A stretch of 63,669 bases of DNA, counting the filler, from Collodictyon triciliatum (lineage: Eukaryota): assembly GCA_043381765.1 (NCBI GenBank). It is 20 parts of 20 records of this genome, joined end to end, with 100 filler letters (N's around TTAATTAATTAA, not from the genome) between each part and the next. Parts side by side here need not be neighbours in the genome. Positions count along the whole stretch, not along the records: positions 38,555 to 41,803 come from JBHJMP010007571.1; 19 more parts are not named here. One strand, given 5' to 3'. Positions 39,677 to 41,478 of this stretch are shown here, piece after piece. Position numbers and translations under genes: made by a program. The notes under the pieces were generated by a model. The model searched no databases and was not told the origin of the DNA. It worked only from the letters and a program-made list of their open reading frames with translations. How positions within the stretch are numbered: the stretch's first letter is position 1; each line of letters starts with the position of its first letter.

Positions 39677-41478
39677 TTACGAGGACTTTGCTTCCTCGAT
39701 GAACTTAAGAATGACCTTGGCCTGGAACTTGGTCATGCTGAAGGGAGCAGACATGAGGTCTATCTCGCCCAATTTCACAAAATCTTCACCAGTCGCCTCA
39801 TGGTCTAAAACCGCAGATACAAAGTTAGGCAGCACGTTCTTACCTTTGAGATAGGCTACGAGTTCTGGGTTTGTCATATCCTTGACAGATTTCCCCTTTT
39901 CGCCGATGGCAGGGCCTGGATTTGCCTTGATGTCGGCCAGCCTGGGCTCCAGGTCGGTCGCAGAGGGTCGACCACGCGGCTCGAAGGACCAGCACTGGTT
40001 CAGCAGGGCGGCCAGCTTGGCAGACATACCAGGGGGAATGGGCGGGAGTTTCTGCTGCAGCTTCTCGTTCATTATCTGGCCCATGTTGAGACCATCGTAC
40101 GGACGTTTGCCCTCAGCCATGGCCCAGACGACGAGGCCGAAGGTGTACATGTCGCTCAGAGGTCCATAGCCCTTGTCCCTGTCAAAGTACTCCGGGGCGG
40201 CGTAGTGAAAAGTGCCTTTGAAGCCGGTTGTGCGGGAGATGGTTTCGCGGGCCGTGGAGATGCCGAAGTCGCAGATCTTTGCAACGCCGCGGCAGAGGAG
40301 GACGTTCTCGGGCTTGAGGTCGCGGTGCTCCACGGGCGGGGTGCGTGTGTGCAGATATTTTAGGCCGGCGTTGATGTGGGCTGAGTACTGGATGTAGTCT
40401 GCGAAGGGCAGCGCCTTGCGCGAGGCCTCAATGACGTCCCAGACGCTGCGGCCGTCGGCATACTCCATAACGTAGAAGACCGTTTGACTCTTGCAGCCGT
40501 AGGCGAAGAGGCCGATGACGTTTGCGTGGGAGAGCCCCACCATCAGCTTTGCCTCGCGTGTCAGCTCCTCGTACTCGGCCGTCCCTGGCTGCGCCTTCTT
40601 CTTGAGCACCTTGACTGCCACCGTGCCTCTGCGCAGCTGCACCTTGTACGCCGTCCCGAAGCCGCCTTCTCCGAGAACCTCCTGCCTGGCGAGGTCGACT
40701 CCCATCACGTCTGCGTAGTCTCCAACCACCGGGGCGCTGTCGGGGTCTGCGGCCGGAGTTGGCCTCGCTGGGGCGGCGTAGATGCCCGACTGGATGTTGG
40801 GACTGGCTACGACCTGTGTTGGTGGAGGGTTTGTGTGTCAGGTAAGTCAGTTAGCTTTTCTAGCTTCAGCTGCGGTATCGACCTAGGGTTATGTTAGTTG
40901 TGTCCTGTGTTGTGTATGTGGGGGTTGGAGGTGGTTGTGTGCTTACGGGGTCGTAGAGCTGCAGCCTTTGGAGAGTGTCGGCAAAGTTCAGTGTCATTCC
41001 AGACCAAGGTTTCTCTGTGTTGTTCCAGCAGGGGAGATTTGAGATGCCACGCGGGGCTCTCTTTATGTTTATGACACCATTGCTATCGATGATGAGTAGC
41101 GTTTTCAGATTTGTGAGTGCTGTGATTTGTGCTGGGAGCTCTTCCATCTGTGTGTATCGTTGTCAGTCATTTTCTTTTTAACATAAATAGTAATATAATA
41201 TATGAATAAAAACATACCGGATTGCCATGAACATAAAGTCCTGTGAGACCAGTCAAACACGATATTTGTGCAGGTAGCGATGACAGCTGATTGGAACTAA
41301 GATACAATTCTTTCAGACCAGTCAACAAAAAAACACCAGGTGGCACAGATGACAGTTTGTTGCAATAGAGATTCAGAGATGTAGAGCTTTTTAGACTGGC
41401 AATATCAACAATTGGATGGTAAGAGAGTTTCCGGACTTCTTCCAAAAGCGCATCTTCAGCAGACAAAGTGTTTCCCAT
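39677..41478 (-). CDS. LRR - TKL-like Ser/Thr kinase - SAM-like protein, predicted N-myristoylated; exons 41478-41218, 41147-40947, 40813-39677
   Basis: MGNTLS start, 3-4 LRRs of 23 aa, and two phase-0 GT-AG introns. Kinase motifs GEGGFG, VAVK, HRDLKPEN, DFG, GTFHYAAPE. The C-terminal ~70 aa form a helical SAM-like domain. Confidence 0.88.

What the first reader, a model, noticed from the sequence alone, without database searches (positions are those of the whole stretch)
39677..41478. Predicted N-myristoylated cytosolic LRR-kinase-SAM protein
Seen: three ORFs splice (phase 0, GT-AG) into MGNTLS, 3-4 LRRs, a Pro/Ala linker, an intact TKL-like kinase and a C-terminal SAM-like domain. There is no signal peptide, transmembrane helix or Roc-COR. 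Known: MGxxxS is the N-myristoylation consensus, LRRs are ligand-binding modules, and SAMs mediate homotypic assembly. Inference: a membrane-tethered intracellular sensor kinase, a candidate protist immunity or recognition receptor.
Basis: partly seen in the sequence, partly recalled or inferred. Interest (0 to 1): 0.7.

Follow-up and report, generated by a model that had tools for sequence, protein, structure and literature searches.

The report
Swappable LRR sensor on kinase-SAM gene
This protist gene joins a fast-evolving leucine-rich-repeat binding module to a protein kinase, and near-identical copies of that module sit in front of other kinases, a ubiquitin ligase and a GTPase elsewhere in the genome, which looks like a mix-and-match system for recognising foreign molecules inside the cell.

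Summary
The gene is real: three phase-0 exons give a 532-aa protein with MGNTLS, four LRRs and a cap, an intact RD kinase of TKL type and a SAM domain (fold Z 11.3). The upstream 'exon' is non-coding, so Gly2 is genuine. But MG starts only 9 of 64 paralogous cassettes and has no second membrane signal: it is an optional tag, not the family's hallmark.

The larger finding is the family. The LRR cassette (leader, N-tag, 2-7 tandem 69-nt LRRs, cap exon) lies on at least 165 contigs. Its binding-face codons show dN/dS 3.7-5.3 against 0.06-0.29 for the framework. Cassettes about 90% identical in DNA precede two kinase-SAM clades (37% identical) and a RING-B-box-coiled-coil-NHL ligase; older ones precede Roc-COR-kinase. 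Trees reject joint descent of cassette and effector. This gene is a recent chimera of a young cassette and an older kinase. External proteins show the same fusions, plus an RNase.

Best reading: one member of a modular intracellular non-self sensor repertoire; immune function is inferred, not shown.

The parts
41479..41803 (-).
   Evidence: 84-94% identical to the 26 closest of 38 compared cassettes, whatever their effector; frame not kept in 44 aligned copies (lengths mod 3 = 18/14/12; 22 of 44 get a stop after the proposed splice; GTAATT in 14 of 44)
41461..41478 (-). N-terminal tag MGNTLS, predicted N-myristoylation site (minority variant)
   Evidence: Sequence; MG in 9 of 64 cassettes, 7 MGNTLS plus MGSTLS and MGNAPS, all with Ser6; an NMT gene is in the genome
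41218..41478 (-). Exon 1: N-tag, capping helix, tandem 69-nt LRR units with hypervariable concave-face codons
   Evidence: 69-nt period in a paralogue
41148..41217 (-). Intron 1, 70 nt, GT-AG, phase 0
   Evidence: same place, 64-79 nt, in the 64 parsed cassettes; external continuous proteins run from LRRs into the cap
40947..41147 (-). Exon 2: fourth LRR and family-specific C-terminal cap ('long' form)
   Evidence: 150 of 150 scored candidates match, 477 candidates in all; alignment A2; long and short caps both occur in every effector class
40814..40946 (-). Intron 2, 133 nt, GT-AG, phase 0
   Evidence: contigs of runs X3 and X4 join 40945 to 40808 with 3 letters between (net 133 nt), short sides of 20-21 letters, paralogue letters
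40847..40882 (-). Remnant of the coiled-coil (AEEARK-repeat) exon used by TRIM-type and some kinase paralogues, now inside intron 2 with its acceptor; identity to TRIM-type genes ends near 40853
40694..40813 (-). Pro/Ala linker; identity to KINb-type paralogues ends at about 40769 (cassette/effector breakpoint)
   Evidence: blastn and junction alignment
39941..40687 (-). TKL-like Ser/Thr kinase, RD type, all catalytic motifs intact (clade KINa)
39680..39898 (-). SAM domain

Best explanation
A functional gene for a soluble LRR-TKL kinase-SAM protein, one product of a modular repertoire of intracellular sensors. Shown: a cassette of leader, short N-tag, 2-7 tandem LRRs and a cap has multiplied to well over 100 copies; its binding face is under strong diversifying selection while framework and kinase are conserved; and the cassette is reassorted by recombination among effector modules (two kinase-SAM clades, coiled coil-RING-B-box-coiled coil-NHL, more LRRs plus Roc-COR-kinase), with breakpoints in the linker after the cap. 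This gene is a recent join of a young cassette to a KINa kinase whose closest relatives carry older cassettes. Inferred: the LRR face binds a fast-changing foreign ligand (protein of a virus, intracellular bacterium or prey); binding clusters the protein, SAM-SAM contacts stabilise the cluster, and the RD kinase is switched on by trans-autophosphorylation, as in ZAK/MLK-type TKL kinases (established knowledge, recalled). The MG tag probably gives weak, reversible membrane association and is one interchangeable address label (most copies have MSD or MAD starts).
For: Family size: 150 scored of 1664 candidates for exon 1, 150 of 477 for the cap; cap found on 125 + 40 distinct fetched contigs. 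Selection: in 50 young cassettes, x-position dN/dS 5.26 (LRR1) and 3.71 (LRR2) against 0.29 and 0.06 for the framework; with disjoint pairs pN(x) 0.44, pN(framework) 0.023, pS 0.166, lowest ratio 2.35 in 200 matchings; 50 of 50 binding faces differ; kinase-SAM pN/pS 0.21-0.48. Effectors among 125 cassette loci: KINb 35, KINa 12, RING 9, Roc 3, more LRRs 18, coiled coil only 15, unresolved 33; among 40 more: Roc 8, kinase 6, RING 2, rest unresolved. Pfam confirms RING, NHL, Roc, COR-A and kinase (B-box only at E 0.009). Cap-to-RING exon chain is in frame with GT-AG introns in C3076 and C8031. Decoupling: the query's intron-cap DNA is 88-94% identical to 14 KINb genes and 91% to a TRIM gene, but 82% to C1056 whose kinase is 90% identical. 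AU tests reject effector clades on the cassette tree (KINa p 0.014, TRIM 4e-8, KINb 1e-12) and a young-cassette clade on the kinase tree (p 3e-41). External continuous proteins with the same cap carry kinase-SAM (P0004, P0255, P0141, P0152), RING and NHL (P0156), Roc-COR plus an AAA/STAND-like NTPase (P0154, P0209), a Regnase-like NYN RNase (P0192) or SAM alone (P0136).
Against: No ligand, phenotype or infection-linked expression was seen. The kinases are RD type in nearly all copies, unlike the non-RD kinases linked to plant and animal pattern receptors (recalled). Effector labels are still clustered on the cassette tree (7 changes, shuffled mean 14.4; the LRR-extended/Roc group is one clade), so swapping is recurrent, not free. 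Of 7 TRIM loci chained, 2 gave a clean frame, 1 an in-frame chain with a non-GT donor, 1 one stop, 1 seven stops, and 2 were not parsed. Loci were picked as top hits, so class counts are not family proportions; alleles and paralogues cannot be separated in this fragmented assembly. The five NYN RNase hits in this genome have no cap nearby. RNA support is from paralogue-like contigs with short sides.
Confidence: 0.6

Rival explanations
1. Same modular sensor system, but the ligands are not from pathogens: it discriminates prey, kin or mating partners, or manages symbionts in food vacuoles.
For: Diversifying selection shows a changing ligand, not its source. RD kinases. Brown-algal ROCO genes respond to stresses beyond immunity (PMC11378527, abstract); Tetrahymena LRR expansions have no proven immune role (PMC6564038, passages).
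Against: No signal peptide or transmembrane helix, so surface kin or prey sensing is unlikely; the effector set (TRIM-type ligase, RNase, STAND-like NTPase in relatives) resembles defence outputs.
Confidence: 0.2
2. One reading: a dedicated membrane-tethered receptor kinase for which myristoylation is essential.
For: True initiator Met followed by Gly2 and Ser6; Ser6 is kept in all three MG variants; external P0133 also begins MG with Thr6; NMT gene present.
Against: 55 of 64 cassettes lack Gly2, including the closest sister gene C6363; no Cys or basic patch in residues 3-15, acidic residues at 8-9 (sequence); myristate alone binds membranes weakly (recalled two-signal rule).
Confidence: 0.1
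3. Repeat-driven, largely neutral expansion: the upstream minisatellite and retroelements promote duplication and conversion, and many copies are dying.
For: A 56-bp minisatellite (43 copies) and 275-bp repeats lie upstream of young cassettes; several cassettes end in RT-like fragments or truncated tails; some kinases carry stops or lose catalytic residues.
Against: Non-synonymous change is confined to 6 of 23 LRR positions while the same codons' synonymous sites stay low (pS 0.09-0.16) and framework omega is 0.06-0.29; intron-1 divergence is only 0.075.
Confidence: 0.05
4. The mosaicism is an artefact of a fragmented or amplified assembly (chimeric contigs, population alleles).
For: 14,576 contigs, many breaking at the shared leader; cassettes are 90%-identical repeats that can be mis-joined.
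Against: The query's junction recurs on an independent contig, C6363, at 92.7% over 2.5 kb; young cassette-TRIM joins recur on C8031 and C3076 with intact splice chains; the same fusions exist as continuous proteins in other data sets.
Confidence: 0.05

Closest known systems
Ectocarpus LRR-ROCO and LRR-kinase candidate immune receptors (PMC3341825: abstract and section 11 read; PMC11378527: abstract read)
   Same: Intracellular LRR genes with Roc-COR or kinase effectors, rapid birth and death, diversifying selection on the LRR face, variable repeat number.
   Different: There each LRR is its own exon and exons shuffle; here LRRs are 69-nt tandem units inside one exon, and the whole cassette with its leader moves between effectors, including a TRIM-NHL ligase and kinase-SAM.
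Fungal NLRs with high-internal-conservation repeats (Podospora; PMC13449251, passages read)
   Same: Hypervariable repeat sensors, repeat exchange between genes, N- and C-terminal domains shuffled among family members.
   Different: NLRs are built around a NACHT or NB-ARC ATPase with a C-terminal sensor; this gene has no NTPase, the sensor is N-terminal and is wired straight to the effector.
ZAK/MLTK (MAP3K20) and MLK/CTR1/TAK1-type TKL kinases
   Same: TKL-like RD kinase followed by a SAM domain (ZAK kinase among hits; ZAK SAM Z 8.0).
   Different: ZAK has a leucine zipper between kinase and SAM and no LRR (recalled); here only about 10 residues separate them, and an LRR cassette leads.
Animal TRIM-NHL E3 ligases (TRIM2/3/32/71) - for the sister genes
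   Same: RING, B-box, coiled coil, NHL in that order.
   Different: Preceded in frame by the hypervariable LRR cassette and a coiled coil; not found in print.
Tetrahymena species-specific LRR genes (PMC6564038, passages read)
   Same: Large, young LRR expansion in a free-living protist, driven by ectopic recombination and linked to non-LTR retroelements.
   Different: 90-bp one-repeat exons, mostly purifying selection; no reported cassette swap among kinase-SAM, TRIM and Roco.

Membership tests
N-myristoylated proteins | Gly directly after the true initiator Met | tested here: met
   Upstream frame not conserved in 44 paralogues; in four with longer flanks it starts after a stop 13 codons beyond the contig edge with no Met; all N-tag variants start at the same place
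N-myristoylated proteins | Ser/Thr at position 6 (MGxxxS/T consensus, recalled) and an NMT in the organism | tested here: met
   Ser6 in sequence; NMT exons on G000:C2495
N-myristoylated proteins | Second membrane signal (palmitoylated Cys or basic cluster) for stable tethering | tested here: not met
   No Cys and no basic cluster in residues 3-15
N-myristoylated proteins | Myristate actually attached | not testable with these tools
   Needs N-terminal proteomics or NMT assay; no predictor on hand
TKL-group protein kinases | Intact catalytic motifs and closest solved relatives in the TKL group | tested here: met
   (CTR1 E 5e-36; TAK1, MLK, ZAK, Roco4, RIPK3 follow; EGFR ranks third)
TKL-group protein kinases | Phylogenetic placement in a named TKL family (MLK, RAF, LRRK, IRAK, RIPK) | tested here: inconclusive
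   Tree with few, long-branched references leaves KINa+KINb as their own group
SAM domain | Five-helix SAM fold | tested here: met
   (top 30 rows are nearly all SAM/PNT domains)
SAM domain | Homotypic assembly | not testable with these tools
   Needs biochemical test
Plant-type LRR receptor-like kinases | Signal peptide and transmembrane helix between LRR and kinase | tested here: not met
   Hydropathy maximum 1.13
Roco proteins (LRRK, Dictyostelium Roco) | Roc-COR tandem before the kinase | tested here: not met
   Only a 40-residue linker lies between cap and kinase; sister genes C4411 and C3584 do have Roc, COR-A and kinase
NLRs | NACHT or NB-ARC STAND ATPase | tested here: not met
   None in the three exons
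Non-RD pattern-recognition kinases (recalled concept; the paper was not held) | No Arg before the catalytic Asp | tested here: not met
   HRD in the query and most paralogues
Ectocarpus-type exon-shuffled LRR receptors | One LRR per exon | tested here: not met
   All variable LRRs lie in exon 1
Ectocarpus-type exon-shuffled LRR receptors | Diversifying selection on solvent-exposed LRR positions | tested here: met

The most novel reading that the evidence does not exclude
A unicellular eukaryote runs an NLR-independent 'plug-in' immune system: one promoter-plus-LRR sensor cassette is diversified in an arms race and repeatedly recombined, through homology in its leader, introns and linker, onto signalling (kinase-SAM), degradation (TRIM-NHL), GTPase (Roco) and RNase outputs, with a myristoylation tag as a further switch that sends some sensors to membranes such as food vacuoles.
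Probability: 0.35. Interest if true: 0.87.

Novelty: new variant of a known kind. Interest (0 to 1): 0.68.

Why it matters
How free-living protists detect viruses and intracellular bacteria is largely open. This family gives concrete, testable candidates: short LRR sensors with a clear arms-race signature, and natural pairs in which near-identical sensors drive different outputs or near-identical kinases carry different sensors. It shows sensor-effector reassortment, known from fungal NLRs, without a nucleotide-binding switch, and an LRR-TRIM-NHL ligase architecture that my searches did not find in print. The single gene alone is an ordinary member; the interest lies in the system.

Tried and rejected
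Single-sequence fold of kinase-SAM was useless (pLDDT 33.8); the SAM was refolded with an alignment. SAM dimer prediction gave no answer (score 0.00, no evidence either way). Source names of the external proteins were not available, so their lineage is unverified by me; the diphylleid attribution comes from earlier AI notes only. RNA contigs: depth drops over intron 1 in X1 and X3, but no contig joint is listed there and one X3 contig runs through it, so this is not counted; no joint is listed for 41590/41482, and the X1 piece over 41590 has only 22 letters on one side, so this is not counted either. The 38555-38834 element, first suspected as the end of a mobile unit, is a common dispersed repeat (1150 candidates) found in either orientation. 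No shared ORF was found in the upstream 1.5 kb of four paralogues. No internal LRR unit is identical in DNA between genes (0 of 107), so there is no sign of very recent single-repeat transfer. My first donor-site parse was wrong for several loci and was corrected. Literature searches for the architecture found no description; the library lacks most subscription papers, and I read no supplements (the Ectocarpus table of 251 LRR proteins could hold similar architectures). PMC12858966 (passages) gave nothing on the consensus.

Full report
Setting. The window is a series of unrelated ~3.25-kb contigs separated by N spacers. The finding lies on one contig, window 38555-41803, which is G000:C7571 of a 75-Mb, 14,576-contig eukaryotic assembly. 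Neighbouring genes in the window are therefore not linked to it.

Gene model. On the minus strand, exons 41478-41218, 41147-40947 and 40813-39677 join in phase 0 over GT-AG introns of 70 and 133 nt into 532 aa. Four LRR motifs start at aa 32, 55, 78 and 101, and no segment is hydrophobic enough for a signal peptide or membrane helix. The kinase keeps every catalytic motif and is of RD type; its best solved relatives are CTR1, EGFR, TAK1 and MLKs. Pfam misses the C-terminal domain, but a profile of 28 paralogous tails hits a solved SAM_PNT domain (E 1.7e-5) and the folded domain (pLDDT 87.8) matches PHC3 SAM at Z 11.3, rmsd 1.6 over 70 residues. Of four runs laid, contigs of two (X3, RNA by guess; X4, RNA) make the 133-nt intron-2 junction, with short sides and paralogue letters: support for the family's splice pattern, weak for this copy.

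Start codon. The frame upstream of 41590 is open in the query, but across 44 aligned paralogues the block has lengths of all three phases (18/14/12), 22 of 44 gain a stop after the proposed splice, and the donor hexamer is kept in 14 of 44. In four paralogues with longer flanks the same frame begins after a stop 13 codons past the contig edge and holds no Met. The AG before the ATG is absent in 18 of 64 cassettes. So MGNTLS is the true N-terminus. It is, however, a minority: of 64 parsed cassettes 42 start MSD/MSE, 13 MAD/MAN and 9 MG. All MG variants keep Ser6, an external relative also starts MG with Thr6, and the genome has an NMT, so myristoylation is plausible. With no Cys or basic patch as a second signal, stable tethering is not.

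The family. Exon 1 gives 150 scored of 1664 candidates, the cap 150 of 477; I fetched 165 distinct contigs with the cap. LRR number varies from 2 to 7 units within exon 1. In 50 young cassettes variation sits at the x-positions of LxxLxLxxNxL (entropy up to 3.3 bits; most framework positions near 0), with dN/dS 5.26 and 3.71 against 0.29 and 0.06 for the framework. Disjoint pairs give pN(x) 0.44, pN(framework) 0.023 and pS 0.166; all 50 binding faces differ; kinase-SAM pN/pS is 0.21-0.48. The positions were chosen from the LRR consensus, but pairwise counts ignore recombination, and alleles cannot be told from paralogues.

Swapped effectors. Behind the cap, 125 loci carry: KINb kinase 35, KINa kinase 12, RING 9, Roc 3, further LRRs 18, coiled coil only 15, unresolved 33; 40 more divergent loci add Roc 8, kinase 6, RING 2. 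These loci are top hits, not a random sample. Pfam identifies RING, a weak B-box, NHL, Roc, COR-A and a following kinase. The cap-to-RING chain is in frame with GT-AG introns in 2 of 7 loci tried, in frame with one non-GT donor in 1, broken in 2, and unparsed in 2. The query's intron-cap DNA is 88-94% identical to 14 KINb genes, whose kinases share about 37% identity with it, and 91% to a TRIM gene, but 82% to C1056, whose kinase is 90% identical. Identity ends at about 40769 against KINb genes and about 40853 against TRIM genes. Intron 2 still holds the acceptor and first 36 nt of the coiled-coil exon that those genes use. On a 30-row cassette tree, AU tests reject clades for KINa (p 0.014), TRIM (4e-8) and KINb (1e-12), although labels remain clustered (7 changes; shuffled mean 14.4) and the LRR-extended/Roc group is one clade. 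On the kinase tree the query and C6363 nest inside KINa among older-cassette genes, and a young-cassette clade is rejected (p 3e-41). The query's nearest neighbour changes from segment to segment. C6363 repeats the query's junction at 92.7% identity, which argues against a mis-join.

Outside this genome. A cap profile run over 1.84 billion representatives returned mostly generic LRR proteins, and a set that covers the whole cap. Among these, continuous proteins carry kinase-SAM (P0004 with an SH3, a transcript product by its name; P0255, P0141, P0152), RING and NHL (P0156), Roc-COR with an AAA/STAND-like NTPase (P0154, P0209), a Regnase-like NYN RNase (P0192) or SAM alone (P0136). The fusions are thus older than this assembly. 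Their sources carry no names here. Earlier AI notes place relatives among diphylleid freshwater protists; I did not verify this.

Mechanism. Shown: anatomy, diversifying selection, reassortment. Inferred: the LRR face binds a fast-changing foreign ligand in the cytosol or on a membrane face; clustering aided by SAM activates the kinase by trans-phosphorylation, as in ZAK-type kinases (recalled); sister genes route similar sensors to ubiquitination, GTPase-kinase signalling or RNA cleavage. Reassortment most simply follows from ectopic recombination in the shared leader, introns and linker; a 56-bp minisatellite and 275-bp repeats upstream of young cassettes may promote it (inference). I put 0.6 on a non-self defence role, 0.2 on other recognition.

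Comparison. It works like the Ectocarpus LRR-ROCO/LRR-kinase repertoire (PMC3341825, abstract and section 11; PMC11378527, abstract) and like fungal NLRs with shuffled domains (PMC13449251, passages). It is not an RLK, Roco, NLR or non-RD receptor kinase, nor a one-LRR-per-exon gene. Searches for the architecture found no description; no supplements were read. The scan had noted the diversifying LRR family and LRR-kinase-SAM genes on other pieces of this genome; a word search for effector swapping found no note.

Verdict. Observation confirmed; interpretation partly supported; new variant of a known kind; interest 0.68.

Noticed in passing
window 40847-40883 (-): Alternative acceptor inside intron 2; using it would give a 165-aa LRR-only product, a possible decoy or regulator. 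The stub is kept in several kinase paralogues.
   Followed up: partly
L141 (G000:C5770) 1-3148; also L142, L144, L147, L148: A 56-bp minisatellite (43 copies) and 2-4 copies of a 275-bp unit with splice-like sites lie upstream of young cassettes of several effector classes; no shared ORF.
   Followed up: partly
window 38555-38834: Dispersed ~280-bp repeat, 94-97% identical copies, 1150 candidates in the genome; seen near about 22 family loci in either orientation.
   Followed up: partly
P0192: External protein joining the same LRR cap to a Regnase-like NYN RNase; the five PF11977 hits in this genome have no cap nearby.
   Followed up: partly
P0154, P0209: External LRR-Roc-COR proteins that end in DUF4062 and/or an AAA/STAND-like NTPase instead of a kinase.
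   Followed up: no
L019 (G000:C6674) 2055-2426: Young cassette plus coiled-coil repeats followed by a short tail that looked acetyltransferase-like by eye (no Pfam hit) and stops early.
   Followed up: partly
L065, L072, L076, L086: Non-LTR reverse-transcriptase-like fragments lie shortly downstream of several cassettes (by eye, not scanned).
   Followed up: no
L066 (G000:C4586) 591-2736; L062, L063, L070, L092: Several genes hold two or three cassette or cap units in tandem.
   Followed up: no
window 37222-38502 (+): Seven-repeat WD40 ORF ending in a long KS/QS dipeptide tail at a contig end; separate contig.
   Followed up: partly
window 42121-45152 (-): Two long ORFs (738 and 249 aa) without Pfam match on the next contig.
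   Followed up: partly
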